A stretch of DNA of 64,000 nt, from the NCBI GenBank assembly GCA_905178155.1, contig CAJINV010000007.1, positions 528,020-592,019 of the forward strand. Reading direction: 5' to 3'. This DNA is from Amoebophrya sp. A120. Taxonomy: Eukaryota; Protista; Dinoflagellata. The notes below the pieces were generated by a model. It saw only the letters and a program-made list of their open reading frames with translations. It ran no database searches and was not told the origin of the DNA. The translations under genes were made by a program, and so were the position numbers. Positions 1,122 to 50,100 of this stretch are shown here, piece by piece; position 1 is the first letter of the stretch, and each line of letters begins with the position of its first letter.

Positions 1122-1216
<95 letters not shown>

Positions 1217-1282: not shown

Positions 1283-2798
1283 CAGCACGGACGAACAGCA
1301 GTCGGGACCTAGTCCGACTCCCGTATCATATGTAAAAACGTTCCCACCCCATAGTCAGGTTGGGAACTCAGCAACACAAATGCAGAAGTTTTGGGAGCCA
1401 CGCATGACAAGTTGCAGTAGTCCGCAGTATAGTGCACGTTAGCAAGGATATCTTCCGCATCGCAAATCCATGTGCTTGTCTTGTTTGCAGCATCACAAAT
1501 TCCAAAACAGGACTGGAAATGCCTCCGTTGGGGATGCGCATTACAAATGTTCCTGTAGTCGCAAATCTGCATGACAACTCTGGGAAGATGGGGACGTGTT
1601 TACACAGGATATCCCAGCGCCACACCTTATGTTTCTCCACCAGGGGAGGAGTCCGCGATTACCACATTGCACCTCATTATGGATGTGTCAGGAGTGAAAT
1701 CGACAAAGTTGAAATGATTTGTTTATGCATAAAATGCAGCCCACAACGTGCCTGGCTTGCAGAGTAGGCAAGTGAGGCAGATTGTAAGCCTGTTGAGGGG
1801 TAGAAACTGAGCTGCTAAAATAGCATGCCAAAAGGCGTTTTCTTTACCCAAACAGCATCACAATCTGGATTTCGGTTCTACCCAAATTTGTCATGCACCA
1901 CTTGGAAACTGGGCTTCCAACTGGTATCGATTTTATGCATGACAAACTATTTTAACTTGGACGATTGCAATCCTGACACTCCCATAACCATTCTGATCTG
2001 GGTTGCCGTGGTCTTGGTATTGGTGGGTGGAGGGGTCGTCATGTACTATTTGGGGTGGTGTGACGACGGCTCTCACTATTCGCTGAACGAGTATGCCCGC
2101 GCGTCGCGGTATGGAACTGTCAGGATTGAAATTGACAAAGTTGAAATGATTTGCCATGCATAAAATGGATGCCAGTTGGAGCCCAGTTTCCAAGTGGCGC
2201 ATGACAAATTTTGGCGGTCCTTAAATCCAGTCTGTCATGCTGTTTAGGCAAAGAAGACTGATTTTCTCATGCTACTTTAGCAGCTCGAGCTCCAACCCCA
2301 AACAGGCTTACAATCGGCCTCACTTGCCTGCTCTGCAACGCACGTACCTCGCGTCATGCATTTTCTGCATTGCAAATTATTTCAACTTTGACGATTTCGA
2401 TCCTGCCACACCCATACGCGGGCGTCCAAGGGGGCCGGGTCCATGCGGAAAGGAGCAGGGAAAAGCACGAACCGGGCGAGTCAAATGCGCCCGTCGAAGG
2501 GGGTATCACATGCAAAAATGTCTGGGTCTGGAGGATTGCGAGATTTGTCATGCTAGTCTAGCATGACTCTGCACTCTGTATTCCGTGGCCACCAAGAGGT
2601 CCTCGTCTTGCCTGCAATGCAAAAGCGCAGTTTCTCATGCGAAATACGCAGCACAGAAACACGAAAAAACTTGTCATGCTTGGCGGCGCATTTACAGAGC
2701 ACTTTATTGTTCACCGACTTGCATCACAAGTTTCCAGACCCAGACATTTTTGCAGTTGATAGGGGGGCGGCTACGCGGCTCAGGGGGGGTATTACTGA
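1283..2798 (+). CDS. C-terminal part of a type-I membrane protein (4 introners)
   Basis: Removing element+5 nt joins TDEQQSGPSPTP..SAITTLHLILIWVAVVLVLVGGGVVMYYLGW..ASKGAGSMRKG..GGGYAAQGGYY* (TGA 2796-2798). Confidence 0.75.
1324..1611. mobile_element. Family-B TIR introner
   Basis: TATCATATGTAAAAACGT..ACACAGGATA; DR TCCCG/TCCCA. Confidence 0.85.
1678..1986. mobile_element. Family-D TIR introner
   Basis: TATGGATGTGTCAGGA..TCCTGACACTCCCATA; DR CTCAT/ACCAT. Confidence 0.8.
2110..2416. mobile_element. Family-D TIR introner (opposite orientation to 1678)
   Basis: TATGGAACTGTCAGGA..TCCTGCCACACCCATA; TSD CGCGG. Confidence 0.85.
2504..2761. mobile_element. Family-A TIR introner
   Basis: TATCACATGCAAAAATGTCTGGGTCTGG..CCAGACCCAGACATTTTTGCAGTTGATA; TSD GGGGG. 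Confidence 0.9.
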
Positions 2799-3803
2799 CC
2801 TTCTGTAGAAGTTCCACCTATGTTGACCAGGCTTGTCGCATGAATCACACAAAACAAGTCCTCGTGTTTTACTAGAACCTCTCAAGAGCGCGACCATCAA
2901 AGTGGTCCAGAATCAAACCCCATAGAAAGAAGAAACCAATTATACCAAAATGCACACAAATTTTTATTCACGTACTTATCAAGAACATATCAGTTCCAGA
3001 TTTTTTGCTTACCTCCCCGTTTTCATGTTCGAGCTCAGGAGCAAACACGTATCTTCAAAATTTCTACTTTTCCCCCCCTGGCGCTAAAATTTTTTCTTCG
3101 GTTTTTCCCGGCCCCGAGAGGGAGAGGGCGCGAGGAGCTGGGCCTCAAACAAGACCGGGCCCATTTTTGTCTGAATTTAATGTTCCGGTGTAAAAGTAAG
3201 TATAAGTATTCTTGGCAGCGCCAGCGTCGTGCTAGCGGTTGTTGTTGTACGCAATGAAACTTGGCCCTACTTGTTCTCCCGTAAAAGTACTGAATCTGAA
3301 AATTTTTCCACTACTGTGGTACCCGTGGTTCTTCCCGTTAAACTGACACAGGCTTTTCGTCTCTCGTAGGTCGTTCTCCTTCGTTCAGACGATATAAGAC
3401 ATCAAAATTGATGTCCTGATGTCGTAGAAAAAAGTCGTCCATTTCGTCTCGTTCCGAACTGTCGTGCCGTGATGATTTTAGCATTGGCTTCCTACTCATC
3501 GTCCTCGAATAAGCTGGTTGTTTGGAACGCCCAAAGCCGCTGTTACTGCACGGCGTTCGTCGGGCCCAGCTGCACCGAGGTTCCCACTGCTGACAGCAAG
3601 CTTTTGTCTTAAGGTCATGAATATGAATACTAATCACAGATGATGTTAACAACTGCCACCCCGACCGGTCTGATTTGATGACACCGGAGATGATAGACCA
3701 CGCTACAGACTAAGAGGAACCGCTCCTCCTTTTACAGAGACCTTGTCCCGAAGTAATTTTCCTCTCCCCGCCTTGTCGTTGGCTTCGAGGTGGTGGACGA
3801 GAC

Positions 3804-7876: not shown

Positions 7877-10800
7877 ATGGCCTTCCGCGGTTTTTCCTTC
7901 AACGCCGGCCCTGGCGGCGGAGACCACCAGCGGCCCAAGATAAACCCCAGCTCGATCCCCCAAGGGCCTGCAATTGGACCGATGGGACCCCCACCAGCAC
8001 ACGATAGTGCTATCAAAAGCAAAAATCCCCCCTCCCCATATCGAAAAGGTATGTTTCCGAAAATTTGTGTTGCTGATTTGAGGTCGCAAATCGCATTTGT
8101 ATTGCAAGAAGACAAGGGCAGAAGCTTCCGCCCCACTATGGAAGCGATTTGCCATGCTGTTGGCCCTAAAAGTGACCCGCTTGCCATGCTGCACAACTAG
8201 ACCCATACGGCCCTACCTAGCCTGGGGATTTGGCCGCAGTGCCTCTCTGCAATACAAACCTGATTTGTGTACGTAAATCCAGCATCAGAAATTCCGTTTT
8301 GATATGGGGAGGGGGGATTTTTCCTTTCGATAAGTGCAATGCTATCTTCGGGATCGGGTGATCCAAATAACCTGTACAATAAGAGACCTTCCCCCGAGGC
8401 TTTGATGGCGCGAGATTTACGAACGGAGCAGTGGGAGCCGGTGGCGAAAAAGAAAAAGAAGAAAGACGATGAACCTGTAGCCGCGCCTCCGCCAGAGGAT
8501 GACGACGATGACGACCCGTTGGCGGCTTTTATGAAGCAAAATGCAGCGGTATTGGAGAAGGAAAATGTCATGAAGGCACAGAACCCGGGGATGGCGATGC
8601 AGACCAAAGGGGAAATTTTAAATGACAACATGGAGGACGACGCCGTGGCGGAGTATAAGATATATCGTTTTCATGCGTACGAGCGTACTAGGTAATATCC
8701 ACTTTTCATCCTCTGACGTCTTCCATTTTATTCTGTAACTGCAGCGGGGGCTCCTATCAATGTTTTATTTCACTTCCCTAACAGCGCCCAAGAGCAGCTG
8801 GAAAAGGAGCTGGCGGAGGCACGCAAGAAGAAAAAACAGAAGGAGGGAAAAGACCAGAACCAAGACAAAGAATCCCCGGACGACATCGATGAAGAGGGGC
8901 AGAATGCGCTGAAACGCGGCGGAATTATATCATTTGTAAAAACGTCCCCACCTCCCCAGAGTCAAGATGGGTATTCTGCAACACAGATCCAGAAGTTTTG
9001 GGAGTAACGCATGACAAGTTTTTCTCTGTAGTGTAATGCGGGTTAGCAAGGACAGCGGCATCACAAAGCCATCCTGGTATCCTGTTTACAGCATCACAAA
9101 TTGCATAACACGATTGAAAATGCCTCTGCTCATGGGGATGCGCATTAGATAGTAATTCTGCATGACAAGTAGAACTCTGGGGTGGTGACGTTTTTACACA
9201 GGATAAATCAAGTTCGATGTTTTGGATACCAATGTGGACCACAGCAAGATAAAGTACCCGGAATTTGAGAAGAACTTGTATGACGAACACGACAGCGTGA
9301 AACAAATGACGGAGGAGCAGGTATAAATTAGAGCAACTATTGTGTTGCTGTTTATAAGTTCTTTGTCATGCACAAATTGCATGGAAAATACATTCTGTGT
9401 AGGAGCTTTTCATCCACGTGTCAACAACAAACAACTACGTGCAAGAACTAAAAATCAGATACTGAAAATCTCTACCAGGTTTCCTCCCTTCGCGACAATT
9501 TAGAACTCCGCTGTCTGGGCCAGGACATTCCCCGCCCGGTGTACAGCTTCGCGCAGTTTTCACTGGACGAACAGATCATGCAAGTGTTGCGGAAAAACGA
9601 CTATGAAACCCCGACCGCGATCCAGTCCCAGGCTATTCCGGTGGCGTTACAAGGTCGCGATTTGATCGGCACGGCTCAGACGGGCAGTGGGAAGACTCTC
9701 GCGTATGTTTTGCCGATGTTGACGCACTGTATCTTCAACTGGGAGTCGAATGGGAGCAAGGAGATGCAGAACGCGGGGCCCATGGCGTTGATTTTATGTC
9801 CCACCCAAGACTTGGCGATTCAGATCGAGAAGGAGATCTACAAGTTCGGGAAGAAACAGCAACTCCGGTCCGTCACCTTAGCCGGGGGGCTGTCAAAGCA
9901 GGAACAGTGGAAGCAGTGCAAGAAGGGCTGCGACATCGTGGTCGGATCGCCGGGGAGAATCATGGATTTGATCAAGCAGAAGGCGATCAGCTTAATCCGA
10001 TGCAGTTTTTTAGTTTTGGACGAGGCGGATCGCATGTTTGAAATGGGCTTCGAGAACCAGGTGACTTCTATTATAAAGAACTTGAACCCGAAGAAGCAAA
10101 CCTTACTCTTCTCCGCCACTTTCCCGGCGAAAATCGAGATGCTGGCGCAGAATTATTTGAACAAAGCCATTCGCGTGATCGTCGGGAAATCGAAGCAGGG
10201 GGAGGCGGCGGATACGGTGGTGCAGAAACCTGTCGTCGTGGACGATGACGAAGTGAAGACGAAATTACAGTATTTGGTAAATTACCACTTCGGGGAGACG
10301 GTGAAGGGGACGAAGGATTTGGATTTACTAGAAATGTCAAAGTCGAAAAATCTGCTCGAGCGGATGCATGCGCAGGTGGACGAGACCAGGAATTCGTGGT
10401 ACGCGGATGCAAATCCGGTGGACGATTTTGGAAACCCGCTCTTAGATTCGATGAACCTCCCCTTACGGACAGCAGTTGGCGCGGTCCAGCTGCAAAACGG
10501 GTTCGAATCTGGGAATTACGTGATGAACCAAAACCCGCGCGCGCCGGTGCCGCTGCCGTCGGAGAGCAAGCCTGATCCTGAAAATCTTCCCGAAGAGGAG
10601 AAGCCACACGACTTGACCGCGTTGGACCAGCAGACCTTGATTTTCACGAGGAGTAAGGATCGGTGCGAATTGCTGAAAAAGCTCCTCGAGCAGGAGATGC
10701 AGCAGTTGACCCGGTTAGTCGGGGGGAAGAAGCAGCAGAAGAAGGAATTCAAGCAGCACAACTTGCCGGTAATTAGATGCTTACACGGGGACATGGAGCA

Positions 10801-12244
10801 GAGGGACCGAATCGAGATTCTGGGGAAGTACCGGAAACAGAAAATCCAAGTTTTGATCGCCACGGACGTGGCCGCTCGGGGCTTAGACATCGCGGGCATC
10901 AAAACCGTGATTTGCTTCGACGGGGCGCAGAAACTGGAGACCCACACACACCGGATCGGGCGGACTGGACGCGCGGGGTTGATGGGGACGGCGTATACTT
11001 TGCTGGTGGAGGGGAAGGACCAGAAGTTAGCCGCTTTCATCGTAGAGGCGATCATGAAAAGGCAGCAAAGGGAGCAGGAACAGGAAAAAATAGAACCAGG
11101 ACAGCAATTACCCAACAAGAAAAACATGATCCCAAAGGAAGTGATGGACCTGGCCTTCCAGCACGCCCCCTTCGCTGCGCATTTCCGGAAGATGAAAAAG
11201 GAAAACGCGAATTTCGGGAAAAAAATCGTCGTCGACGATGCGGGCAACGCGGATGATGCGGAATTAGAGGAAAAAACGGAGTTTGAGCAGATGAGCCAGT
11301 CGTTAGCGGACTCGGTGTTGAACCAGCAGCAATCCATGATCTCCGCGAAAAAAACCGCGGGCGGAATTTTCCAGTTGCAGGCCAAGCAGCGGGGGACGGT
11401 TGGGGTCGGGTTTACGGAAGACGGAGATAATACCAACAGCAAGAAACATATAAAACGCATCACCCGGGAAGAACTCGAGACGCATCGGAAGGAACAAGAT
11501 TTGAAGACGAAAATCACGATCACCTCCTTCAACCAGTCGGGGGAGCGGAAAACCGAGACCGCGGAACAGGCGTTACATGGACATCACGGAGCAACGAACC
11601 AGCAGAACAAGACTCACACAGTCGTCGTTTCCCCCGGCGGGACAGGGAAGACGAATGACGATTCCTCCGACAGCGATGACATTTACGCCCCGGGCGTGAC
11701 AGCCGGGTCGAACATCATGAGTCACTACGCGAATATGGTTGGGCCGGCGAACAATTCTAAAGGCGGGAAGAAAGGCGGGAAAAGCGGGAAGCCGGGGATC
11801 AACCCCTTTTTCGCCGCGAATCCCGGTGGTGCGGGGGGTGGAACTGGTGGGAAAGGAGGTAACATGAATCTGAATGTGCTGCCAGTATCTGGCTTCTCGG
11901 GTGGAAATAATGCGGGAAATACAACTTCTACCGGAATCACCAGTCGGATAGTGCAGCAGCCAGGAACAGTTTCTGGGTACCACGCGCCGCCGCCACCGGT
12001 CAGTAATAGTATGCAGCAGCAAGCCGCAGCGGGGGGGTCTTTACCCGGACCGGCAGCCGCAGGGGGAAATCAGCCGAGCCGGAATAGGCCGGGGAATGGG
12101 TACGACCAGAGCAGCAGTCGGAGTCGGGAGCAGGGTCGGGAAAGGGAACGGGAGCGAGACAGGGGAAGAGATCGCGATAGCAGAAGAAGGAGCCGGGGCG
12201 GCGATAATTACAAGCGAGATGATAGTAGAAGAAGGCGACGATGA
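7877..12244 (+). CDS. DDX42: DEAD-box RNA helicase, DDX42/SF3b125-like
   Basis: Motifs AQTGSGKT, DEAD, SAT, ARGLD and HRIGRTGRAG. N-terminal DPLAAFM and VDHSKIKYPEFEKNLYDEH resemble DDX42. Exons 7877-8010, 8338-8691, 8785-8927, 9211-9320, 9479-12244 (2 introners, 2 GT-AG introns). Confidence 0.85.
8011..8332. mobile_element. Family-C TIR introner
   Basis: TATCAAAAGCAAAAATCCCCCCTCCCCATATC..GGATTTTTCCTTTCGATA; TSD AGTGC. Confidence 0.92.
8692..8784 (+). other. Canonical GT-AG intron
   Basis: AG|GTAATA..CTAACAG| keeps the frame. Alternative donors at 8653 or 8677 are also in phase. Confidence 0.55.
8928..9205. mobile_element. Family-B TIR introner
   Basis: B-type TIRs; DR AATTA/AATCA. Confidence 0.85.
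9321..9478 (+). other. Canonical GT-AG intron with CAGGT at both junctions
   Basis: Joins MTEEQ|VSSLRDNLELR in frame. Confidence 0.8.
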
Positions 12245-23215: not shown

Positions 23216-23467
23216 TATCAACTGTAAAAATGTCTGGGTCTGGAAGAATTCATGTTTGTCATGCTTGTCTGGCATGACTCTTAAATCTGTCATGCACGTT
23301 ACCCAAGAGCTCCGTTTTTCTGTGATGCAGAAGCGCAGTTTGTCATGCAGAATAGGCAACACTTAGGAGCTCAGAAACTTGTCATGCTGAGCCAGCATTT
23401 GTAGCCTCATCATGAGACGCCACCCAGCATCACAGGTTTCCAGACCCAGACATTTTTACATTTGATA
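23216..23467. mobile_element. Family-A TIR element (host frame unclear)
   Basis: TSD GCGAC. Confidence 0.9.
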
Positions 23468-23650
23468 GCGACAGCAGCAGACCACGGAGTAGGACTGCAG
23501 CAGCCGGATTGAACGGATTGATGGTGTGGCAATGATCAATTCGTTTTCCTTAGGCAGCTTTATTATTTTGCCGGCATTCGTTTCTTTGAACGTACGCGGT
23601 TAATTCCGACCCTTTCACGTGACCAGAGCCGATCGCTTTCACGTTCGGAT

Positions 23651-23910
23651 TATCAACTGCAAAAATGTCTGGGTCTGGAAGAGTCGGGGCTTGTCATGCA
23701 CATTTTGCATGACCCGTGAGGCCTGTGATGCTGGTGCTAGCATCACAGATTTTTTGAGAGCTTCTTGATGCTGATTACGCATGAGAAATGCCCTCTTCGT
23801 GTGCCACGATCTGACTCCCCTTGCTCCCCATGCAACACAGATATTTTTAAAATCCGCAGACAGCATTACAAGTTGCAATCTTCCAGACCCAGACATTTTT
23901 ACAGTTCATA
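23651..23910. mobile_element. Family-A TIR introner
   Basis: TSD CGGAT. Confidence 0.9.
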
Positions 23911-24622: not shown

Positions 24623-24713
24623 AGCCGATCACGGAGTAGAACTGCAGCAGCCGGATTGAACGGATTGAGCCGATCACGGAGTAGAACTGCAGCAGCCGGA
24701 TTGAACGGATTGA
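24623..24713. repeat. 45-bp tandem duplication; third partial copy at 23483-23521
   Basis: AGCCGATCACGGAGTAGAACTGCAGCAGCCGGATTGAACGGATTG x2. Confidence 0.9.
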
Positions 24714-24871
24714 GGCACTTAGTCGCTCGAAACTTTTCTTCAGAACAGCGGAAGACGTGCGACGACTTTCTGAGTTGGCACCCGTAGGTTTACAACACAC
24801 GCGAACAGCTGCAATCTCGCACTGTCCACCTCGCCAGTTCGACTTTCAGCACTTGAAGCTGCGCAGCGACA

Positions 24872-32119
<7,248 letters not shown>

Positions 32120-32127
32120 AAAGCTTT

Positions 32128-32406
32128 TATCCTGAGGAAAAACGTACCCACACCAGAGTTGTAATGCAGATTTGCAAAGACAGGAAGACTTGCAATGCGC
32201 ATCCCCATGAGAGCCATTTCCAGTCGTGTTTTGGAATTTGTGATGCTGTGAACAGGATGAGCAGATGAATCTGTGATGCGGCTGCGCTTGCTAACCTGCA
32301 CTACACTGCATTGTGCAACTTGTCATGCGTGACGCACAAAACTCCTAGGTTTGTGTTGCAAAATCCTCATCCTGACTCTGGTGTGGGTACGTTTTTACTC
32401 AGGATA
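32128..32406. mobile_element. Family-B element in 3' UTR, inverted near-identical copy of 31756-32034
   Basis: TSD GCTTT. Confidence 0.93.
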
Positions 32407-33749
32407 GCTTTTGCAGCTTGTTTTATTGATCTCACTTACAACACCGAGGGAGAAGAATGACACCTACACAACATCAGCTCGTGCAGCCACCTCCAGTGGC
32501 TTTCATCGTTTATCGTTCTGTCGAGTAGAAGAAAATAATTGCAAAAAAACAAAAAAACAGCCTCTTTCGATCATAATTTTCTTGTTTGTTCACCTTGTTC
32601 ACACGCGTTTTGACACCGATACCGAATTTTTACGTTTCTGTTGCAAGAAGATGAAGAAATTTACATTTTCACAACTAACTTGTTGCTGTACTACAGGCTT
32701 GATCTTTTTACCACAGTTTTAATGTTTCACTTTTAGCATTTACCAATTTTTGGACTTTTCACTTTAATGTCGTTGATGTCGCCCACGTGTTCTAACGCAG
32801 GTGTAGTATACTTCTAAAATATGTAGTGTGTCAGTACCGTGTTTCTACTTCACGAAAAATAGGAAAAAACAGAGAGGATTGAAGCTGGTACAGCCGTCGA
32901 GGCGGGAAGAGCTCGCGAACTTTGTTACTCCAGTCCGTCTAGAGCGACACAAGTTCCATACTTTCGCAGCAACTACGGGATCGAAATATACGAAACTGCA
33001 CCGAGAAAATTAATCACTGATCGCGCGTTGATATTTTTTGTTTCGTTTACCACTCAGAGGTACTCACAGACCTGTACAGTAAAAAGATAGGAACTTCAGT
33101 ATAGTTCTACGTCAGGCGGAAAGAAGATGAAAGTCGAGAATTGAGATATATTTGCACATATGGTTTGGAAAATGTAAAAAAAAATCCAAGAAGGTGACTG
33201 CGCGGCGGCATTTGCCGGACCACGCATGTGCTTCTGCTTGTTCTCCGCGTCGTGCGTCGTCGTTTTTTTTTGCGTCATCGTCAAAGTCGTGCGGTGCCCA
33301 GCAGTGGCAGGGTCTTCCTTGTGGAAATTAAACGAAAAAGAAAATAGTTTTAGAAGTCCACCGCGTGGTCTTTTGTTTCGTTCCTCCTATCGTAGGCTGA
33401 TCGTCCGAAAAATTATCATCGTGAAGTAAATCGTGTTCGTACGACTCGTTCTGGTTACAAAAAGTTGGTCTTCGTGCCTTGCGAAAAAGCGTGGTTCTAG
33501 GAGACCTGCTTCTTGCACTACGAAAAATTTGTCGTATTCTTACCCGTCGCTCTACCACGTCGACGACGAGACAAAGCACCTCCAGAGCGGAGACAGTCAT
33601 TCTTGTTAGCGTTGAAGTCCCACTGTGTCTATCAATAACCGCACCACAGCAGGAGGACGGAAGTAAATTGCTGGATAGATCATGAATGAACATTCAAAAG
33701 TTTCTATTCTAAGCAATAACAAACGGAGGACATCCATCGTCAAGTGATC

Positions 33750-36700
33750 ATGATCATGCTACTCCGGTGTGCGAAGTTCGCAGTTCTTCATCTTCTGGCG
33801 CATTGTTTTGTGGCTTCTCCATCTTCCCTATTTGGCCTCTTGGGTGTTTTGCAAATACGCGATGTCGCGAAAACCGCCGCGGCGGCTCGGCCCCGAAGTG
33901 AAGCCCACGGTCCGACGTCGGAAGAACTCCTTCTCGGTCGCAAGTACATTGGTGCACCGGGAAGAAACATCAACCAGAAGGCTATTTTGCGGGGACAAAG
34001 AAGAAAAGCAAGAATATCATCACACAAGCGCTCGTCGCTCCTGGAGCGGCAGCAAAAGCGGAGAAGGTCTTCAAAGTTTGCCTTCGCAGCTCGCAGTCAG
34101 GATGATCCGGGAGAACAAGTTGTCGTGGCGGGTCCAATTTCAAAGGATGTTGGAGCTGTGGAGATGAGTCCAAGAAGAACTACTTCGAAGCGAAATAAAG
34201 CGGGCAATAGCAACACCTCGACCTTGTCTTCCAATCTGTTGGAACTACAAGCGACACCCAGCACCGTGGGAGGACACATCTCTGTCGCCCCCGAGTCCCT
34301 CCTACCGCAGGGCCTGTCAAGACTCGCTGAGGGGAGGGAGCTCCATGGGCCGACAGACAGTGCAACAGAAAACGAAGGAATAGACGAGCGGAATGAAACA
34401 TTGAATCATGATGCTCCTGAGACGACAACAAGAACACATCATTCTCCTCAGCTGGAGAACAACTTCTACGCGGACGATCTTCGTGATGGGAACAAAAAGG
34501 GTATTGGAGCAGGACGAGGAAAAAGCTTATTTGACGAGAACGTCTATAACGTTAACGTGAGTGCGAGAGACAGAGACAGAATGGCGGACGAACACGATCA
34601 CGAAGCTGGAAAAACAGATACTACTAGCGTTCGAGTGGTGACCCGTGGAAGAACTACAACTACGCCGTCAACAGCTGGGAGCAGCAACAGCGCCTCCACT
34701 CCTGGTTCAACATCCGTGGGCGGTCATGAAAGTAAAACTAGTTCTTCTCTACCGCCAGTAGAAGATCAACAGGAACATCAACTACCAGTACAACAACAGC
34801 TAACCCGCGCGAGGCTGCAAGAAAGGCTTTTCGAATCCTGTATTGTCCAGTGCGCGCACGCGCCCGGGTTCCAGCCGGGAACGCCGGTGTGCGGTGCGGA
34901 CTTCCTATCACACAGAAAAAAGCTGGAGGCAGGGCATATTTGTAATGAAAAATAACTACACAAAAAAATATGCCATGGATGGCCCCGTAGCATGCTGTTT
35001 CGTATATGAAATACAGATCTTTTTGTGTATTTATTTTTGCATTACAAATGTGACCTGCCAGTTTTTTTCTGTGTGATACTTCCATTTTTTTCAAGACGTG
35101 AAGTTTCCGTCCCTCTGTTACGAGCAGTGCTACTACACGCAAGTGAAAGCGACCGTATGAAATGCAAAAATGCCTTGGTCTGGAACATTCTAAACTTGTG
35201 ATGCTGTTTCTGGATTCTGAAAAAATTTGTATTGCATGACCAGCAAGAGGACTCCAGTTTGTCCTAAGCAGAGAGGGCGTTTTCATGCGGCAGAGGTATC
35301 GCAAAGCGCTCTAAAAATCTGTGATGCTACGGCATGCATCACAGACATCATGGGTCACGGAAAATATGCAAGACAAATCTAGAAATCTTCCAGACCCAGA
35401 CATTTTTGCATTTGATAGACCGCCCAGGCGTACAACATCGACCTCATCCAGACCGCTGACACGGAAGACAGCAAAATGTGGGAGGTGGCGTATCCTGAGT
35501 AAAAACGCCCCCACGAGGACCCGAGAGCTGTAATGCAGATTTGCAATTCCAGGAATGTTTGTAATGCGCATCCGCATGATCCCCATGAGAGGCATTTGCG
35601 CATGATCCCCATGAGAGGCATTTCCAACCAGTGTTTGGCATTTGCAATGCTGCAAACAGGATATACAACAATACGAAGAGGAAGTTGTCATGCGTGACTC
35701 CCATGACTTCTCAACTTGTGTTGCTAAGTTCCCAAAAATCATTAACTCTAGGGTCGTGGGGACGTTTTTACACAGGATATGGCGCGTAAGCAAGCCTGGT
35801 TGTCTAGCGGACAGACGGGGCTGTCCGAGGCGGAGGTTGAAGCGGTGGCGCGGACCTTTCTCCACGTGCCCGGGGTGTGTCAGGAAGAGGGGATTCAGTA
35901 CTTGAACATGCTCTCAGAGGTCATGTTTCACGCCACTCTTATGGAAGTGTCAGAATCGAAATTGACAAAATCGAAAAACTTGTGATGCATGAAATCGATA
36001 CCAGTTGGAGCCTCAGTTTGTAAGTGGCGCGTGACAAATTTCGGGAGCCCCTAAATTCAGTCTGTCATGCTGTTTGGGCAAAGAAGACTGCTCCTGTCAT
36101 TCTACTCTGGCAGCACATTGTATACCCCTAAACACGCTTACAATCGGCCTCATTTGCCTGTTCCCCAATACAGGCCTTACGTGCCCTACATTTTACGCAT
36201 CACAAATTTTTTGATTTTTTCGATTTCGATCCTGACACATCCATAACTCTGGGAGACCTGCTACGGCACGCCGGAGTAGTTCTTGCGTCGCAGAAGAACA
36301 ATCATGTGGTAGAAGGACTAGGGCCTGCTCCTGCGAGGGACGACGAGAGCGGTACAACTACTAGCGGGGAACATCAAGTAGTAGAGCACGACATTGAACA
36401 ACAAGTACAACAAGACGCTGCAGGGTTGAAGATTAATACCAACAAGCCCCCGGCGCGGTCTCCAAACTACAGGGGAGCTGGAGAGGATAGTGCAGCTAGC
36501 GGCGAGGAGGGTTCATCCTGGGGCGTCGAGAACAACAGGGAGCAGGAGCAGGGGAAAGTCTTTTTCAAACGTGGCCGCGACAATTATGGCGGCCGGGGGT
36601 TGTGGGGCGACAAAGCAGGTGGATCAGGAGAAGAGGCGGAGACTGCTGGAGCGGCTGACGGCGACCCATTGCACGCTCCCCCTCCAGTGCAGTTAGATGA

Positions 36701-38111: not shown

Positions 38112-41100
38112 ATGTTCGGGCAGCAGCAGCAGCAGGTGCAAACACATTCGGGTTCATCCCCACCGGCTCCTCCAGCGACGGAGCAGGTGAAGCCGATTCT
38201 GGAAAAATTGAACGGGATCCGCCAGTATGAACTGGAAAAGTGTCTGGGTCTGGAAGAGTGCGCGACTTGTCATGCAGCTTTTCCATGACCCATGAGGTCT
38301 GGAATGCAGGATCTAGCATGACAGAGTCTGTGCGATCTCTCTCATGCCTATCCTGCATGAGAAACTCCCTCCCGACTTGGTCAAAACTGGACGACTTATG
38401 CTGGTAATCATGCAACACAGATATTTGCATGCTTCAGATTTAGCATGACAAGTTGCATTCCTCCAGAGGCAGACATTTTTACATTTGATAGCCAGCTCGC
38501 GGGAAACGCTGCGGAACTTCGCCGGAAGGAGTTTTTCGAGGAATCATATCAAATGTAAAAATGTCTGGGTCTGGAAGAATGCAACTTGTCATGCTGTTTT
38601 TGGATTCTAGAAAAATTAGTGTTGCATGACCAGCAAGAAAGGTCCAGTTTGTGCTACGCAGAGAGGGCATTTCTCATGCGGAAGGCGCATCAGGAAGCCC
38701 TCCAAAAGTCTGTGGTGCTAGGTCATGCATTACAGGCATCAGGGGTCATGAGAAATATGCATGACAAGTCTTGCATTCTTCCAGACCCAGACACTTTTGC
38801 ATTTGATAAATCACAAAGGCAGTTCATTCTGAACAACTATGCGGAGGAAAAACGTCCCCATGCAAATTTGCGCACGCAGGATGTTGGTGCAGGATGTCTC
38901 TCATCGACGCCGGCCTCCTCAGGAGCATTTTCAAAAACGTTGTGTTGGAATTTGTCATGCTGTAATTTGGTTTATTAGGTGAAGAGCGATTTGCGATACG
39001 GCCGTATTAGCTGCGCCTCCAAAGTCGTCATGCGCATCGAGATCGACAGCCAAATGCTGAATCTGTGTAGCAAATTTTCCGTCGCAACATTGCCATGGAA
39101 ACGTCGTTTTTGCACGGGATATCACCTGTTTCAACCTGTTGCTCGAAGACCAAAACTTTGACGAGCGCCTGGTCACGCAAGAGGTGTTTTGCAATGCGTT
39201 GCTGAAAAGCTACCACCACAATCCGAACATTACCAGCCTAGCGGCCTCTGCTTCGTTTGCCGCGCGGGGAGAGCAGGATTTTGCGCACGGTGCCGGCGGG
39301 GGTGCAGCACTAAACAGGGGGTCTATCGCAAGAAAAGACTGTTTCACTGTAAACTTGTGATGCGTAGATTGCAGCACAGGACGCATTTGTCTTGCTACAC
39401 ATGCAAGACATTGGGTTTTTCCACGTGTTTTCCCTTAGGAAGTACGCATGGCAAGTTGTCTTTGTCATGTGTAACGAACTTGTAGTTGTAATGCAAATAT
39501 ACTTGCAAAATAAGCCTTACTAGTGAAACACTTTTTTCTCGCGATAGGTTCAGGTGGAGGTTCATCTACTACGCCTCCTGCGGTAGCAGGGTTGAACCTT
39601 TACAGTCCCTACGGGACGACGGCAGCGCAGCATAATGTTGGCACCGGAAGTAGAACCGGTAGTATGCCGGGCGAGGAAGACGACATGGAAAATACCTTGG
39701 CGCCGCAGTCGTTTTTCAACCTGCACGCATTTGAGGACAGCATTTACTTCTTCACGAAAAGCGAAGATGAGCAGCATGATGAGCAGCAGCAAACGACCGG
39801 CACAGGGATGATTGTTATATCCCCGGACGAAGCAGCGGCAGCCCCGGACCCGGTCAGAGGAGAGCGTGAAGACCATGCACTTCACGGTTTTTCTAAGCTC
39901 GCCAGCGGTGCTGGCACGACTACCACGGCACGATTTGCCCGCGACGGCGAAGAACAGAGGCTCTGTGTACTACCCACCACAACAGCCGCCGCAGTTGTGC
40001 AAACAAGTGACAACAAACTGCAGAGCTGTATCGATGAGATACTTCGACCGGCGGATAGCCTGATGTATCTCGGGAACAGCGATAAAGATTTCGGTCATCT
40101 ACCTGGCAGCTCCGCGTCAGTTACGACTTCCGCGAACCATTACGCCCATCCGATGATTGCAGGAACGACTACTAGCAAAGATGGGAACTTGCTGGTATCC
40201 ACTTGTAAGCCAGTACCGAAAATGCAGCAATACAACGCTGCTCCAGGAGCAGACCACGCGGCGGGTGGAGGCTCGACGCAGGGGGGAATTCGAGCAACGG
40301 CGGTGGAACAAGCCGGATTTTTTTCAGCAGGGATGAATAACAATAAGCAGAACGTTTCCGCCACACCCTCGGTGACTCTGAAGGAAATCCGCCGGCAGAA
40401 CACGGCGTATGCGAAGAATTTAGTGCTTACTCCCACCCTGCTGAAGCAGATGCTGGTGGAACTTACCGCGTCGGATATTGTCCAGTTGTGCGACCTCCTG
40501 GCAGAAACGCTACACAAAGAGCAAACGGCCTACCGCACACTGAAAGTCCAGGTGGTCCAGGACGAGGAGGCGGAAAATCATGGTCAATCACATCCCCGGT
40601 CATCTAGTACCACTGGTTTTACTTCTTCTGCCACGGCAACCAGGAGCGCCGTGAAAAATGGCAAGCCCAAGGAGATCCTGTCGGCGACCTGTCTCTGCCA
40701 CTTTAACGGCTTCATCTACTGTGCGGATTCGGTGGCACATGTGATCTGGCGCTGGCACGAGTCCTGGTTAAGTGGCAGTGGAGGCGGGACAGCGACTTCC
40801 ACTACAGCCGCGGGAGGAAGCATGAACAGTCAGATTGTATCTTCCACCCCAAATGTTAATGTAGTTCGAGGTACTTCTGCTGGTGGTTCTACCAACACAA
40901 ATTATCGTCCAGGACGAGCCTCTTCGTCTGACGCCAACTACGCGGCGAGTCATAGTCCGTCAGCCTCAAGGAACAATGTCTCCGCGTACAGGAATCGTTC
41001 ATGTTCCCCCGCTGGTAAAACGAAAACCCGGAACGCCAACGCCTTAAGCGCTCTGTTGGGAAACAATCGAGGAGATCGGCATGGTATTAATTCGAACGGT

Positions 41101-44100
41101 GCGGCAAATGATCTCGTGGCGCTGCAGAATGGAGTCGACTGCAGTAGTAGCATCGCAGCCGCAGGAGGGGCGGCCGCCCACGGGTCCGGGTTCAATGCGG
41201 TGGTGGCGAATGCGAGGGCGTCAACGACAGCAGTCTCCGCTTTCGCTTCGGAGTTTGCTTCTGGACGAGAAAATTTTGATTTTCCCGCGAAGACCCCTGC
41301 ACCCTCCCCGCCCCCCTTACACCCGGTGATTTTTGCCGGGCAGTACAAGAAATTTGGTTACAAGGACGGTCCGCTCGCGAAATCCTTACTCCACGGGGTG
41401 TCCGGTATTGCGGTGTGTGCGAGTCGGAACTGTTTGTTCGTTTTGGACACGGACAACGACGCGTTGCGCAAGATACATTTAGACTTGGAAATCATCGAAA
41501 CCATACCGCTTCACGAAACCAGCGCCGCAGGACCAGTGGAGTCAGAGCTAGAACAGTCCAATGATTTCGCAGGGGGAGCTGCTGCAGCCGGCGGTGGCGG
41601 GAAAGGGAGATTTTTACCTACTTTCGGCCAGAACAAGCAGATAGAGAACAACGACGATGTCCTGCTCGGGGAGGATCGTCTAAACGTGAGTCATCTGCCA
41701 AATTCAGATGGAAAAGTAGTAGGAAAGAGAAAAAATTTGAATTTCCCAACTACAAGTAGCTATAATGACGAGGAAACCGACGAAAATAGACTACACATTT
41801 CGTCCCCCCAGGACGTCGAAACCTTCGGCCACCGAATCCGGCCGCGGTGTTTCCGGGCTCCGAAGTGCCTCACCGTACTGAACGGCGACAACGATTTTTT
41901 GCACAAGATTGACCTGGCGCAGGCCCGGCGGATCGCGGAGCAAATGGTGGACTCCTCGACCGAGTCGTCGGATTCAACGGACTCAGAAGATGAGTCATCG
42001 GATGTAGAGGACAGCAGTAGAAGTGGGATCAACAACTCCACCTCGAGCAGCCCGTCGGAAGGACAGAGCAACTCTGCGGAAAACGATCAACCAAGTATAA
42101 TCGCGTCGGACCAACGGGAAATGAGTGAGGATTCTAGGCCCGCTGCTGGCCCCCGCACCAGGAGCTGCTCCTCGGGTCAAAGCCTAGCGAGGAACGAAGG
42201 TAGTGATGATTCTCCGTCCTCTTCGCGAGGAGGCTCATTGTCAGGAAGGGCCAACTACGAAGATGGGGAGAGAGACGATGGAGGTCGGAACGTCGGCGGA
42301 CAGGAAGCGATTTTGAAATTGAAGAACAGAACATGTGAAGACGATTCTGACTTATCTGCAACGGGGGCTGGAAAGGACAATTTGAAGCATGAAGATCATG
42401 ATGCGGACCACACCTCCGACGTCTTACTCGTCGCAGGGAAATTTCAAGAACAGCAAGGTTCTGGACACTCAGAACCAGAATCCGCCGGCGAAGTCGCTGA
42501 AGTCCAGAAAACGAAGAAGAAATCTTCGCTGACGTCGAAAAGCCGAAAAACTTTGACCGGAGTAGCTGGTAGTAGTGCAGCAGCGCCTGGGAAGAAAAAG
42601 AATTCCCAAAAGATTGTGCCTTCTGTCAAAATCAGTATCAATGATTGCGAAATGGTTCAGATGGAGGACACGGGCGCTGCTATTCAAGGAGACACTGGTC
42701 GTGATCATTCGAAGGTTGCAACTGCAAGCAATGCTGCGGAGGATGAAGAGGACTGCGAGGACAGCGCCAAGGATATTGATGACACGAACACTGCTAAGAA
42801 TAACAGCGAAAGCAAAAGTGCCCAGCACCAGATCGTTCCTGCTACAAGCAATACGACATCAGGCGCGTCGAAAAGAACATCGACTGTTCCTCCGAGAGCC
42901 AGCACAGCAACCCCACAACAACAGCAAACGCATTCTCAACCGACGAAAAAATCGCGCAACACTTTGAAGCACATGAACCTAACGGACGTTAGGGAGACGC
43001 TTATCCTGAACAAAAACATCCCCACCCCAGAGTTGTCATGCAAATCTGCATGCCAAAAAAGTTTCTCATGCGATGAAGTCCCATGGCAGCCATTTTCTCA
43101 TGCTATCTGGGAGTTTGTCATGCTGGAATCAGGATAAGGAAGTCAATTTGTCATGCTGTTGCACTAGCTCAACAGGATTTTACTGCGAGGCCAAACTTGT
43201 CATGCTCGACAGTGACAACTGGGAGATTTGTGTTGCAGATTTCCCATCTTGATGACTCTGGTGTGGGGACGTTTTTCGTCCTGATAACGCTACTGAAACT
43301 CGTTCCCGAAACGCTCGACCCGGGGCGGCGGAAATACAGCATCATGGCTATTGAGAGGAAAAATCCCTCCTCCCCATATTGAAACGGGATGTTTTCGATC
43401 GAAAATTTGTGTTGCTGATTTGAGGTCACAAATCACATTTGTCTTGCAAGAAGACAAGGGCAGAAGCTTCCGTCCGATTATGGCAGCGATTTGCCATGCT
43501 GTTGGGCCTAAAGATCAGCCGTTTGCAATGCTGAACAACTAGACCCATACGCCCCTGGCTAGCCTGGGGATCTGGCCGATATGCCCTCCGCAATATAGAG
43601 CGGATTTGTGTACACAAATCGGGCATCAGAAGTTCCGTTCTGATGTGGGGAGGGGGGATTTTTCCTTTCGATAATGGCCGACGAAGCGCCCCTCCGGCCG
43701 CCGACCGACCGGGCTTTGTCGGTTTTGTCAAAAATCTCCGGGCCGGTCAGGTCCAGAAGCGCCAGCCGCGCGATGAGTATCTGCAGAAATGACAGTACCG
43801 ACGGGGAGATTGATGTTGTGGGGACTGATAATATCGCGACAGAAGGTAACGACCACGTGAAGACCAAGATGCCAAAATTTGTGGAAAACAACACCAGTTT
43901 CTTGATGCAAGACGAGATGTTGAAAACTACAACCGGTGTAGATGTAGAAGTTGCAGCTTCCTCGAAGAACAAAGGGTTCTTTGAAAACACCAGCAAGCAG
44001 AATTCCACCAAGAAAAGCACCTCCAAAGAAAAGGGCAGTAAGCTGATCACGGTTGCGCACCGGAAAGATAAGAAGCTACTGCTGGATACCACCTTGGACG

Positions 44101-47100
44101 AGCAAAAAAGACCTTGCGACGGCGTAACTCCTGGTATGACGAAAGAGCCGAACCTGCTGGTGGCGTCGGCGATTGACAATGCTTACCGAGAGATTGATGA
44201 TCGGGAGAACACTACGGTGAAGAAGGACAAAAACTCCCTCGACGACGATGAGGAACTATTGGACGACAACCAACCCATGACACGACTGGTGATCTCTGCA
44301 GACCACATGATTTGGTATGTAAACCCAGACTCCGGCAGCTGCGATGTGCTCGCGGGCGACCGGGAAGGCGGCTATGGGTATCGGGACGATGTTTCCGGGA
44401 AGCTGTCCCGGTTTTCGTCGCCGAAGGGCCTGGTGTATGCACTGCTAATATGTCTGGCTCTGGAAATCGAAATTTGTGTTGCTCATACTCGCATTGCAGC
44501 CTAGCCGCATCTACGAAATAACAGCATCAGAAGTGTTGCGAGGCTTATTGCAGATTCATTCGTGGAATGCATGACAAACTACTTACCATGTCCAGCACGA
44601 CAAAAAAGTTATGGCCAAACGCATTCATGCATATGCATCACAGATCTTCTTGTCCTTCACTTCTCGCATCACAAATCCAGACCCAGACGTATTTGCAATG
44701 CATATGGTGCAAATCCGGACAATCCTCTTTGTGTCGGACTACTGGAACAACGTGATTCGCTCAGTGAACCTGCTGACCACGCAGGTTGACACGGTCTTGG
44801 ATATCACGCCTATCGGTCCGGTTTCGTTCGCGATTGCGCCAGACAACGGGATCTTGTACGTTTTAGACGCTGAATACATCCACTACATAAACGTCCTCCG
44901 CATCACCTCCGCGCCGAACAGCAAGGGAAGGCAAAACAACGAGCTCTCCGACGCGTTGTCCGGGGGTCTCTCCAGTGCGGACCGGCACGATTTTAACAGT
45001 GAGAAGGAGGCGATTTTCAGCGGTCACCGGTCGCGCGCGTCCTCTATCGCGAGCGGCATGACCACCGCGACGGCGCAGACGGAGCTTATCCTGAGGAAAA
45101 GCGTTCCCAAGTCGGAATCTCTGCAACACAAATCCGGAAGTTTTGGCAGTCACGCATGACAAGTTTGTCGCTGTACTTATTGTATCAGAAATGCAGGTGG
45201 CCAAGGACAGCCGCAGTACAAAGCCACCATCCAAGAATTCTGTTCACAGCTTTACAAATCCAAAAACACGATTGGAAACGCCTCTGTCGGAGATGCCCAC
45301 CACAAGCGTTCCGTTAGTTCTGGCTTGGAAACACTTTTGCTCAGGATAGAGCTGTGGGATTCTCTAGCCAGAAAGGGCCTGAACGTGCAGCGGCCGAGTC
45401 AGATCATGATGAACCTGGCGAACAGCAATATGTCGTCGATTAACCTCTCCGCCGACCGGTTGAGCAGGTTGGGGAACCAGAACGCCGACAGGATCGGCAC
45501 CGGGGAACTGTTATCAAATGCAAAAGTGTCTGGGTCTGGAAGAATGCAAGATTTGTGATGCATATTTCTCATGACCCATGATTGTCTGTGATGTATGCTC
45601 TAGCACCACAGATTTTTAGAACCCTTCCTGATTATGCACCTTCCGCATGAGAAATGCCCTGGCCGTGTAGCAAAAACTGTGCCCCTCTTACTGGTCATGC
45701 AATACAAACTTTCTTAGAGTCCAAAAACAGCATGACAAGTTGCAATCCTCCAGACCCAGACATTTTTGCAGTTGATAACTGCATGGAAATAGCCACTTGA
45801 TAGTACCCGGGGGAGGAGGTGCAGGCGCTGCTGGTACAACTACTGCGTCTCTAGGATCGGACGACGGTAATGGAGGTTCAAACAATGTTCGAAAATCGCT
45901 CCTGTCAACAGGCTCAGGTAATCATGGAGTGAACAGCACAAACAGTGAGACCAACTTCCTTTCCGGTCTGAAAGCCGGGTTTTTGAACACTTTAAACTCG
46001 CTGCACAACGACGAACACATCTCTGACAAGAAGAAAAAGAAGAAAAAGCGGGCGGAAGTGAAGGAATTTTTGGCGAAAAATCTACCAGTTGGTGGAAGTG
46101 CGTTCGTTCCGGGAAATAATCCCGAGAATGGCCTTCACCAGTCGCAACCAGCAGCTGGTGGTGGTGGTGGTAGCTCCTCTCACCCGCATCCACCAGTGCA
46201 GCACCAAAAAGAGCAGAAGCCGGACATTGATGAGATGCTGCAGAAGCACCGAAAGTCGATCGCGATTACCAGCGCAGCGGCGGCAGCGGCTCCAAACTAC
46301 GGGGCAGGAGGATTGAACCCAAACTTCCCCCACCACCAAATGGTGCAGCTGCAGCCGACGGCGATGACGCTGTCTGATTTGGGTGTTGTCGGGCCGAGTC
46401 GCCGGGGCTCGATGCTGCACGTGGGCAGCAGCGATTTTACGCGCCGGACGAGTGTGTCCCAGAGCCGGAGGGGGTCTATTGTGAGGAAAAAACCCCCCAC
46501 CCCATATTGAAAGCGCATCCTTCTGAAAATCTGTGATGCGTATTTGTGACCACAAATCCTATCTGTCTTGCATGCGGGCAAATCCAGAAAATCCGCCGCA
46601 TTATGCAGGCGGTTTGTGATGCTATTGGGCCTACGCCATCGACGTTTTTCATGCTAGGAGCCTACGCCAAAACGTCGTGGCTCAGGCTTGGCATATGCCT
46701 GCAGTCCTCTACTGCAAGACAAATCTGATTTGTGTAGTAAAGTCCAGCATCAGAAACTTCTTTTTGATATGGGGTGGGGGGATTTTTCCTATTGATAGGG
46801 TCCAGTTTGAATTTACTGAACAACGCGGTTGACGAAGAGTCGGAAAATATCAACCTGCAAGTTTCCAACTACGCGAGTCAGCAACGCAGGAAATCTATCC
46901 CACAGAAAAAAGCTGGCAGGGCACATTTGTAATGCAAAAATAAACACACAGAAAAATCTGTCATGGGCGGGCTCATAGCATACTATTTAGGATATGCAAT
47001 GCAAATTTTTTTGTCTATTTATTTTTGCATTACAAACATGACCTGCCAGCTTTTTTCTGTGTGATAAAATCCAGCGTCGCTGCCTTGAACATGCAACTGG

Positions 47101-50100
47101 CGACGACGAATAGTGCTGGCAATATTGCCAACATGACTAACGGAAATTTTGGAGGACCTATGGGTAGTACTAGTGGTGTCTCGCTCCACCTCGGGCCTGG
47201 TGCAACTACAGCGCAGGGAGCCCCGGCACTACAACTACATCAACATCCAGGTTTGACACCCACTACCAATTCCCCAGCGACCTTCGGGAGTAGTAACCAC
47301 TTGCAAGCGCAGCAGACGCAGCAGCGGCGGCTGTCCGGCCGGGGGAGCTTGATGGTGAAGGACGGGAAAGTTTTCAATGCGAGAGACAGAACCTTGTCGC
47401 TGGTTAATACTGGAGGTGCAAATCATGCCACGTCTATTGGCGCAAGAGCAACTTCTGGCGGACAAAATTTCAATGCAGAAATTATGACAAACCTGGGCAG
47501 CGCTTCCACGTCCCACTCCCGCCGCACATCGCGGGTCGCGATGGAGGGACTGACGGAAGACGGAGAAAGCGTCCGGTTTTTCGATTTGAAAAATCTCCCG
47601 GTGCGGTCGGATTCCGGGATTAGTTCGAGCAGTGGTGGCGGGGAAAATGAGGAGGAGGAAATCGATCAGGGTCATCATCTCGATCTGGGTGCAATTGTGG
47701 ATCAAATCAAGGAGAAAGAACAGGAAGATTTTTGCAAGTCTGAAGAAGATCCTCCTGCGCCTTCCGCGCCGGTGCAGATTCTGGTAAACTCGTCTATCAC
47801 TGGCACCGCTCCTCCGGTGCCTCCCGCGGCCGGGAACAAGCGTCGAACCTTGATGATGCCGACATTGTTGGATGTGGAAGAAGACGAAGAGGAAAGTCAG
47901 ACCGTTGAACACGAGGTGGAAAAAAATGATACTGCACCTCCTGCTGTTCTTGATCTTGACCAAAATGCCAACCCGTCCACGACAGAGAAACAGGACGGTG
48001 GGGGGACAGTGGCTGTTGCGGAACAAGATGGAATTGCAAGTGATCCCGCTGCACTCTCGTCAGAAGCTGCAACTAGTGCAGTTGGTCCGCCTTCTCAGAC
48101 AAACATTCAAAACCGGCCGCCCAGTATTCATGTGGAAAGACCACTGCAAACCGGGAACAATGTTCATTCAACATCCGAGAGCCCTTCAAACAATTCCGTG
48201 TCGGTAATCTCCCCTATGTCGAATTCCAATTCTATCAGCCTACCGCCGCCCTGTATCGTTCTCCACTCCCCCGGCGGGGCAAATTCGAATTTGAACGTCG
48301 CGAACACTGGTGGAATGGCGAAGAGTTTGGCCACTAGCATTGCGGAAGAGGCAGGTGGTGATAATGGAGAAGAGGAGAAAGACGCAGATGACCAAGGAGA
48401 ATACTACGACATCTTTGTCGGCCCCGCGGAGTCGCGGCTGCCGTCGAAGACGAGGATGGGTGCGGAGGAGGAAGATGAGAGCCCGGGGCAAGGCGTTTCG
48501 CCGTCTCTATTTCCCCGGCCGAGCATCGCAGTAATCAAGGCGCCGGAGGATGTGAAGAGGATCGAGCAAGAAAACGGCACGGCGCAACATGGAGGTAAAG
48601 ACACAACGTCGGAAAAGGAAGGCGAAGGAGAAAATAAATCCGCCAGCGGAAACACAATTACTGTGACAGGAATAGTAGATTCCCAGGGCGACGCTACTTC
48701 ATCCACCCCGATTCTTGCAGATGGAGCAAGCACAACTTCTACGGCGCTTGTCCCCGCCGCCCAGCATTTCCATTCCCGAGAGCGGCGGAACAGCTTCACG
48801 CCGAATCTAGGCGGAACTCTCGCTGGAACTCCAGGAGCCGGAACAAGCACCATGACAAACTTGACACCACTCGCCCAGCAGCAGCGGAATTCTCTCTTTC
48901 TCAGCCAGCAAATGATAAACCAGCAAAACCGCCCCAGCGTCGCACTGCAATTACCGGACCATATGAATGCAGCTTCGGTATCGAATGCAAAAATGTCTGG
49001 GTCTGGAAACTTGTGATGCAAGTCCGTGAACAATAAGTGCTCTGTAATGCGCCGCCAAGCATGACAAGTTTTTTCGTGCTTCTGTGATGCGTATTTCGCA
49101 TGAGAAACTGCGCTTTTGCATGACAGACCAGAGGACCTCTTGGTCGCCGCGCAATACAAAGTGCAGAGTCATGCCAGACTACCATGACAATCTTCCAGAC
49201 CCAGACATTTTTGCATTTGATATTCGGGGGGTATGAACAACTACATGCGGCGGCGAAGTTCCGTCACCGCGCAGCTGATGTTGGCGGAGTCCAGACGAAA
49301 TTCGAGACGGATTAGTGGGGTGTTGAACAGTGGTCCAGATGGGGCTGCTGCAGGCGGACAATCCGCGGCGCAGCAGTTTCTCTCTCCTCTCTCCTCCGAC
49401 TCCTTGCTGAACCTCCGGCGCCCGAGCAACTACGACACTCTGAAGAATTATTTTCAGCTATTACGATGAAAAATGCCCCCACCCCACACTTGGCAGCATT
49501 TGTATTGCAAACCGTTCCAATAGAAACATTTCCCGTCTTGCATATCTCAGCATCACAAATTTTCCATGCTGAATAGCTCGAATTTGTGTTGCCAAGGGGC
49601 CCTACAGCAGTCGGATCTGTTATGCAAAAGGCATCTTGCGCACCTAGCTTCTGCATCAGAAAGGCTCGCAATCCTTTCATGCAAGACGAAAAGCTTTCAT
49701 TTGGAAACTTTGCATGACAAACTTCTGCAAATTCCGGGATGGGGTGGCATTTTTCATTGTAATATCAGCAACGGGTGAGTTTTATGGCGAACTACGTGCC
49801 GTTCGATATCAAAAGGAAAAATCCCCCCTCCCCATATCAAAATGGAAATTTGTAATGCTGATTTGGGGTCACAAATCATCTTTGTCTTGCCTATAGGGCA
49901 ATAGGAGCCATGTGGCGCATTCCAAAGCCAATCTGCCATGCGCTTTCGGCTACTGCAAACCTGTTTGCCATGTGTACTTGCTAGCCTTCCGCATACCCAA
50001 ACAGGCTCAGAAAATGCCGCCAAGCACTTTCTGCAAGACAAACCTGATTTGTGTACTCAAATCCAGCATCAGAAACTTCGTTTTGATATGGGGAGGGGGG

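What the first reader, a model, noticed from the sequence alone, without database searches (positions are those of the whole stretch)
2504..49222. Removal is orientation-independent
Seen: close relatives lie in opposite orientations inside + strand CDSs (A 2504-2761 vs 48979-49222; D 1678 vs 2110; E 34906 vs 46896), and all restore the frame by the same rule. Inference: polar splice signals (5'SS, branch point, 3'SS) are not needed. Recognition should be symmetric, either an RNA TIR stem or DNA-level excision reminiscent of ciliate IES removal.
Basis: partly seen in the sequence, partly recalled or inferred. Interest (0 to 1): 0.75.

Follow-up and report, generated by a model that had tools for sequence, protein, structure and literature searches.

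The report
Amoebophrya introns spliced in either orientation
These are the already published transposon-derived introns of the marine parasite Amoebophrya A120; copies facing either way stay in the DNA and are cleanly missing from what are likely transcripts, probably because both ends carry the same sequence, which a relaxed splicing machine would read at a fixed offset, so DNA excision of the ciliate kind is unlikely.

Summary
The window is Amoebophrya sp. A120, and the elements are its published TIR introners. The observation mostly holds. Pairs A and D are inverted relatives, but pair E lies in the same orientation. One likely-RNA contig skips 14 elements, each by its length plus 5 nt, including both orientations of two families and a 97%-identical inverted pair. 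A related assembly shows no strand bias. A DNA run keeps the elements, so IES-like excision is unlikely. The inference that no polar signal is needed does not follow, because inverted ends look the same to the transcript in either orientation. Five diverged target duplications fit one transcript-polar cut, 1 nt before TAT and 4 nt after ATA, which puts TAT where GTAT introns have it. No AG or G+1 is needed. Best guess: a relaxed spliceosome reading the ends (0.55); rival: a stem-guided nuclease and ligase (0.3). Two-orientation introners are known in other species. This scan had already noted the 1+4 cut on other pieces of this genome.

The parts
1678..1986 (.). Family D introner, named example; diverged 5-bp duplication (3 of 5)
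   Evidence: host + frame inferred
2110..2416 (.). Family D introner, inverted relative of 1678 (81%) in the same gene
2504..2761 (.). Family A introner, named example
48979..49222 (.). Family A introner, inverted relative of 2504 (88%)
   Evidence: ORF test
34906..35078 (.). Family E introner, near-palindromic, same orientation as 46896
   Evidence: crossed by P0121
46896..47066 (.). Family E introner, same orientation as 34906
24685..33158 (+). Host transcript (842-codon open frame) with 14 introners, all skipped in one likely-RNA contig
26075..26332 (.). Family A introner (minority orientation); diverged duplication limits cut to k=4-5
26392..27953 (.). 1562-bp introner holding a nested poly(A)-ended insert; skipped as 1567 nt
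29049..29272 (.). Family F introner; diverged duplication fixes the cut at k=4 with no ambiguity
29585..29854 (.). Family A introner (minority orientation), right end AGA, duplication 1 of 5; cut k=3-4
30615..30897 (.). Family B introner; cut k=4-6
31756..32034 (.). Family B introner in CDS; 97% inverted twin of 32128; skipped
32128..32406 (.). Family B introner in the 3' UTR, opposite orientation; skipped
39061..51500 (+). Host gene (end approximate): 2868-codon ORF after removal of 14 introners, with both orientations of families A and B
50861..51159 (.). Introner present whole in a DNA contig and skipped in a likely-RNA contig; cut k>=4
7877..12244 (+). DDX42-like helicase gene (identifies the organism) with two introners and two canonical introns, 8653-8784 and 9321-9478, both starting GTATAA

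Best explanation
These are Amoebophrya A120 introners that stay in the genome in both orientations and are missing from likely transcripts together with one 5-base duplication, probably cut out by a relaxed spliceosome that reads only their identical-looking ends. Shown: TAT...ATA inverted ends; a 5-bp duplication made on insertion; both orientations in one gene; skips of length plus 5; elements kept in DNA. Fitted from five junctions: the intron begins 1 nt before TAT and ends 4 nt after ATA, whichever way the element faces. Inferred: N-TAT serves as a GTAT-type 5' splice site with a free first base, the predicted TIR stem brings the ends together, and the 3' cut is measured from the stem without an AG. 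The branch point, if any, would lie within or next to the TIR. Orientation does not matter because the information read sits in the symmetric ends, not because the reaction is symmetric.
For: RNA-level removal in both orientations: X3 record 16 and X4 record 19 skip A(+) 25156, 25719, 28680, 29908, A(-) 26075, 29585, B(+) 31756 and B(-) 30615, 32128; predicted length 3337 equals the contig length. DNA run X5 carries 45087-45348 and 50861-51159 whole at depth ~44, and X1 record 7 skips the latter. Cut ranges 4-5, 4, 3-4, 4-6 and >=4 share only k=4; all five exclude the mirror value k=1. At k=4, TAT sits at +2..+4, and both canonical introns of the DDX42 gene model start GTATAA. All nine predominant non-canonical pairs for A120 in Table S4 of PMC7789003 have T as second base, as do all nine for A25. 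That paper finds 83 of 89 spliceosomal proteins and U2, U4, U5, U6 in A120. The T that becomes +2 is kept in 164 of 164 left ends vs 158 of 164 mirror positions (p=0.03, one of three positions tested). Empty site with a single 5-mer in a related assembly (L072).
Against: No G preference at +1 (57 of 164 vs 192 of 656, p=0.18) and AG at the 3' end in only 12 of 164. No branch point identified; the internal GCATnACA motif is 4:0 on the sense strand in some family B copies and 0:4 in others, and both orientations are removed. U1 snRNA was not found in A120. The GTAT comparison rests on two introns from one gene model; a de novo search for more gave only noise. The whole TAT/ATA triplet shows no polarity in the related assembly (107 vs 107 of 109). 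No family gave an informative junction in both orientations. X1-X4 are one sample and are RNA only by the tool's guess; X5 is another sample.
Confidence: 0.55

Rival explanations
1. A spliceosome-independent protein endonuclease and ligase recognise the terminal RNA stem and cut at a fixed stagger, 1 nt before and 4 nt after it, as is suspected for euglenid nonconventional introns.
For: Both orientations are predicted to form the same terminal stem (z about -7.5; TIR positions 9-25 paired with mean probability 0.68-1.0 in 28 of 28 A and B copies). No junction dinucleotides are needed. A 1.2-kb insert in the loop is tolerated. Euglenid introns pair +4..6 with -8..-6 and leave as circles (PMC11282704 section 6); here +2..4 would pair with -7..-5.
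Against: No sign of selection on RNA pairing: G-U vs A-C mismatches 147 vs 145; sense folds better than antisense in 28 of 53. At 29585 the terminal three pairs are predicted open (0.05), yet it is removed exactly. T at +2 is shared by A120, A25 and canonical introns. No candidate enzyme was identified.
Confidence: 0.3
2. Elements are excised from DNA in the transcribing stage, like ciliate IES, and mRNA is made from the excised template.
For: TIR, TA-rich ends and exact removal with one duplication fit a transposase-like reaction. X5 and X1-X4 are different samples, contigs drop rare variants, and 652 of 667 X5 joints were not shown, so a stage-limited or rare excision is not excluded.
Against: X5 contigs cross junctions and two whole elements at the depth of unique DNA with no differences. 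A two-fold symmetric DNA reaction would not give k=4 five times out of five (about 1 in 32 if tied to element orientation). A separate somatic nucleus is not known in Amoebophrya (own knowledge, not tested).
Confidence: 0.04
3. The introner RNA splices itself as a ribozyme.
For: Stable predicted structure and no need for junction dinucleotides.
Against: A catalytic fold would not be expected to survive reverse complementation, and interiors differ between families and orientations.
Confidence: 0.03

Closest known systems
Introner elements of Amoebophrya sp. A120 (PMC7789003; read: abstract, sections 10, 11, 12, 16, passages, supplement parts 2 and 3 of 5; figures not seen)
   Same: Same organism; IR starts TAT, then less-conserved bases, then a run of A; 3-5 nt direct repeats; hairpin; non GT-AG.
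   Different: In what I read the paper does not address element orientation, and its Fig. 3 legend calls splice positions variable or unknown. Here both orientations are shown removed and one fixed cut fits.
Two-orientation introners of Polarella glacialis and Aureococcus anophagefferens (10.1101/2020.10.14.339549, passages; the Aureococcus paper itself was not held)
   Same: DNA-transposon introns created in either orientation.
   Different: Those use GT/GC/GA and AG sites from the element or duplication, and classes 6, 8 and 10 show a bias to one orientation. Here no AG is needed, any target 5-mer works, and no bias was detected.
Fritillaria borealis non-canonical introners (PMC11282704 section 6; 10.1101/2025.08.15.670264 passages)
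   Same: TIR-derived non GT-AG introns, reported to be removed by an adapted spliceosome.
   Different: They keep preferred ends (AG-AC, AG-AT); here both terminal bases come from the variable duplication.
Euglenid nonconventional introns (PMC11282704 section 6; PMC6221363 passages)
   Same: Terminal stem at a fixed offset from both cuts, duplication-like repeats, unknown machinery.
   Different: Offsets 3 and 5 with CAG/CTG rather than 1 and 4 with TAT/ATA; circles shown there, untested here.
Ciliate internal eliminated sequences (recalled, no paper read)
   Same: Short transposon-like inserts in coding DNA, removed exactly.
   Different: IES are lost from somatic DNA; these elements stay in DNA and have a 5-bp variable duplication.

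Membership tests
Amoebophrya A120 introner elements | Located in the A120 genome | tested here: met
   P0001, 100% identical, named Amoebophrya sp. A120
Amoebophrya A120 introner elements | Terminal IR starting TAT with an A run after seven variable bases | tested here: met
   TAT at 57 of 57 left ends; A at positions 11-13 in 47, 47, 53 of 54
Amoebophrya A120 introner elements | 3-5 nt direct repeat at the boundaries | tested here: met
   Perfect 5-mer in 42 of 57; single copy at an empty site in L072
Amoebophrya A120 introner elements | Repeated and removed from RNA without GT-AG | tested here: met
   7 families; 15 of 15 shown joints (run type is a guess); 1 of 54 GT/GC-AG at k=4
Spliceosomal (U2-type) introns | GT at 5' end and AG at 3' end | tested here: not met
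   G+1 57 of 164, AG 12 of 164; only T+2, A+3, T+4 match
Spliceosomal (U2-type) introns | Branch point and lariat intermediate | not testable with these tools
   Only contigs of the right strain were available
Euglenid-type nonconventional introns | Terminal stem at a fixed offset from the cuts | tested here: met
   Predicted stems; offset 1/4, not the euglenid 3/5
Euglenid-type nonconventional introns | Excised as circles, not lariats | not testable with these tools
   No back-joint among 15 of 24 joints shown, which is not a test
Ciliate IES | Absent from somatic DNA | tested here: not met
   Present in X5 contigs at single-copy depth; one sample, rare forms dropped

The most novel reading that the evidence does not exclude
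Amoebophrya has a second, spliceosome-independent pre-mRNA splicing system: a stem-guided nuclease and ligase that measure 1 nt and 4 nt from a TAT/ATA-closed hairpin, ignore junction sequence and interior, and so make any insertion of these transposons, in either orientation and at any target, a clean intron.
Probability: 0.3. Interest if true: 0.85.

Novelty: already known. Interest (0 to 1): 0.4.

Why it matters
How Amoebophrya removes tens of thousands of non-GT-AG introns is an open question. Orientation independence confines the needed signals to the ~30-nt ends, and the fitted cut gives exact intron ends. That makes lariat, circle and minigene tests possible. The 97%-identical inverted twins in one transcript (31756, 32128) are a ready-made natural test pair. 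It also explains how these elements could spread so freely: neither target sequence nor orientation would matter.

Tried and rejected
E pair as an inverted example: rejected. Minus-strand host for 1324-2761: an antisense frame is also open, but the codon score favours +; a protein search found no database model, nor did one for the large gene. Strand bias of family C (6 of 6 in the window, 7 of 7 with a partial copy): vanished in the related assembly, 20 vs 25. G-U excess and sense-strand folding advantage: none. De novo search for canonical introns: no donor enrichment among 168 candidates, uninformative. P0001 at 8928: synonymous, does not fix the cut. No holder was on record as RNA. Family A TIR in viral contigs: 0 matches. 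Pfam on 16 ORF stretches: no transposase family. Spliced-leader motifs beside the nested inserts: not found (motifs recalled). Two rows (27698, 33032) were dropped as low-complexity false calls; six elements were added later.
Full report
What it is. The window holds at least 57 short elements (17,957 of 64,000 bases) bounded by TAT...ATA inverted repeats; 42 of 57 have a perfect 5-bp flanking duplication. A DEAD-box helicase at 9452-12241 is 100% identical to a protein named Amoebophrya sp. A120. The anatomy matches the A120 introner elements of PMC7789003 (section 11). In locus L072, from a related assembly with about 88% exon identity, the site of element 28680 is empty and carries the 5-mer once, so the duplication is made on insertion.

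The observation. Pair A is 88% identical in opposite orientation and pair D 81%. Pair E aligns better in the same orientation, 84% vs 79%, and is nearly palindromic, so that example is wrong. All-against-all alignment placed 46 of 51 elements in seven families with no inconsistent orientation edge: A 12:6, B 5:5, C 6:0, D 1:3, E 3:0, F 3:0, G 1:1. The best inverted pair is 31756 and 32128, 97% identical. After removal an antisense frame is also open across 1324-2761, but the + frame has a codon score of +13.5 against -10.0 and encodes a hydrophobic, membrane-helix-like stretch, so a + host is likely.

Removal from RNA. Four runs of one sample, RNA by the tool's guess, were laid on 23000-33400. 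All 15 joints shown, of 24 found, skip element length plus 5. Fourteen share the depth of one contig (X3 record 16, X4 record 19); the predicted joined length, 3337, equals the contig length and gives an 842-codon + strand frame. They include four A copies in one orientation and two in the other, and one B copy against two. Element 32128 lies in the 3' UTR and is removed too. Depth on this gene ranges from about 3 to 113 between runs, which fits RNA.

Kept in DNA. Run X5 has even depth near 44 on unique sequence. Its contigs span 45087-45348 and 50861-51159 whole, without differences, while X1 record 7 has exactly the 235 nt expected if 50861 and four neighbours are skipped. Limits: the samples differ, contigs drop rare forms, and 652 of 667 joints were not shown.

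Wider count. A scan for the family C end gave 137 loci from one related assembly. Of 312 element calls, 261 were unique with enough flank, and 109 got a host strand from a codon model trained on this window (on window elements: 34 +, 1 -, 19 uncalled of 54). Of the 109, 12 fit no family and 2 were ambiguous; the rest gave A 14:9, C 20:25, G 7:6, B 2:7, D 1:1, E 0:1, F 1:1. Pooled with the window, after dropping two L072 orthologues and taking all window hosts as +: A 25:15 (p=0.15), B 7:12, C 25:25, G 8:7. No strand bias was detected; a mild one cannot be excluded.

The cut. Let k be the number of left-duplication bases kept. Where the two copies have diverged, RNA gives k=4-5 (26075), 4 (29049), 3-4 (29585), 4-6 (30615) and at least 4 (50861). 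Only k=4 fits all: the intron starts 1 nt before TAT and ends 4 nt after ATA. I noted this; notes of this scan on other pieces of the genome, read later, report the same register. A mirror-symmetric process would give k=1 for half the copies; none of five does. No family gave an informative junction in both orientations, so transcript polarity is inferred.

The ends are inverted repeats, so the transcript sees the same first and last ~30 nt in either orientation. What orientation independence removes is the need for signals in the asymmetric interior. In family B the GCATnACA motif (pattern taken from note e1-10626161) lies 4:0 or 2:0 on the sense strand in some copies and 0:4 in others, and both kinds are removed. 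Introners that make spliceosomal introns in either orientation are described for Polarella and Aureococcus.

Mechanism. For a relaxed spliceosome: k=4 puts TAT at +2..+4, and the two canonical introns in the DDX42 gene model both start GTATAA and have T at -6 and A at -5, as introners usually do (n=2). Table S4 of PMC7789003 lists only donors with T second among the predominant non-canonical pairs of both strains. The future +2 T is kept in 164 of 164 left ends against 158 of 164 mirror positions (p=0.03 uncorrected). Against: no G+1, no AG, no branch point found, U1 snRNA not detected, and no polarity for the whole triplet in the related assembly. For a stem-guided nuclease: both orientations are predicted to fold the same terminal stem, as in euglenids. 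Against: G-U and A-C mismatches are equal, 147 vs 145, sense strands fold no better than antisense, and 29585 is cut exactly although its terminal pairs are predicted open. I put these at 0.55 and 0.3; DNA excision 0.04; self-splicing 0.03.

Novelty. The elements and their removal are published. I found no statement on orientation of A120 introners or on a fixed cut in the parts of PMC7789003 that I read, in passages of PMC12130899, PMC9860276, PMC11453091, PMC12787238, PMC12621601 and PMC8469720, in section 6 and passages of PMC11282704, or in searches (listings only for the other papers). Figures, three of five supplement parts of PMC7789003 (term-searched only), preprint supplements and subscription papers were not seen and may bear on this. 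Verdict: already known elements with a useful, testable refinement; interest 0.4.

Noticed in passing
window 26652-27887, 61437-63090, and ending at 951: Three inserts nested inside introners end in the same ~16-base motif plus poly(A); two have target duplications (8 and 19 bases). They look like non-LTR retro-copies; no long ORF was seen. The 1562-bp host element is still skipped exactly.
   Followed up: partly
L072 1200-2291 vs window 29505-30579: Inverted relative to the window between two family A elements, with non-matching duplications at one: recombination between inverted copies or a misassembly.
   Followed up: no
L072 506-739 vs window 29049-29272: Orthologous element in a related assembly; the duplication copies have changed at left position 5 and right positions 1-2, which are intronic at k=4, and at left position 4, which is exonic.
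   Followed up: partly
TIR positions 4-8 of all elements: These positions are often mismatched between the two ends (position 7: 25 of 54 paired; 48 of 109 in the loci), while 1-3 and 11-13 are nearly fixed.
   Followed up: partly
window 8653-8784 and 9321-9478: Two canonical introns end CTAACAG and CTACCAG, a possible fused branch point and acceptor.
   Followed up: partly
window 24857-32119: 842-codon low-complexity protein with a long His/Glu-rich C-terminus; not scanned against families.
   Followed up: no
window 1118-1216: About 33 TAC units inside the partial family C element that ends at 1282; may be real or an assembly feature.
   Followed up: no
window 57400-58371: RING-finger protein without introners.
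   Followed up: no
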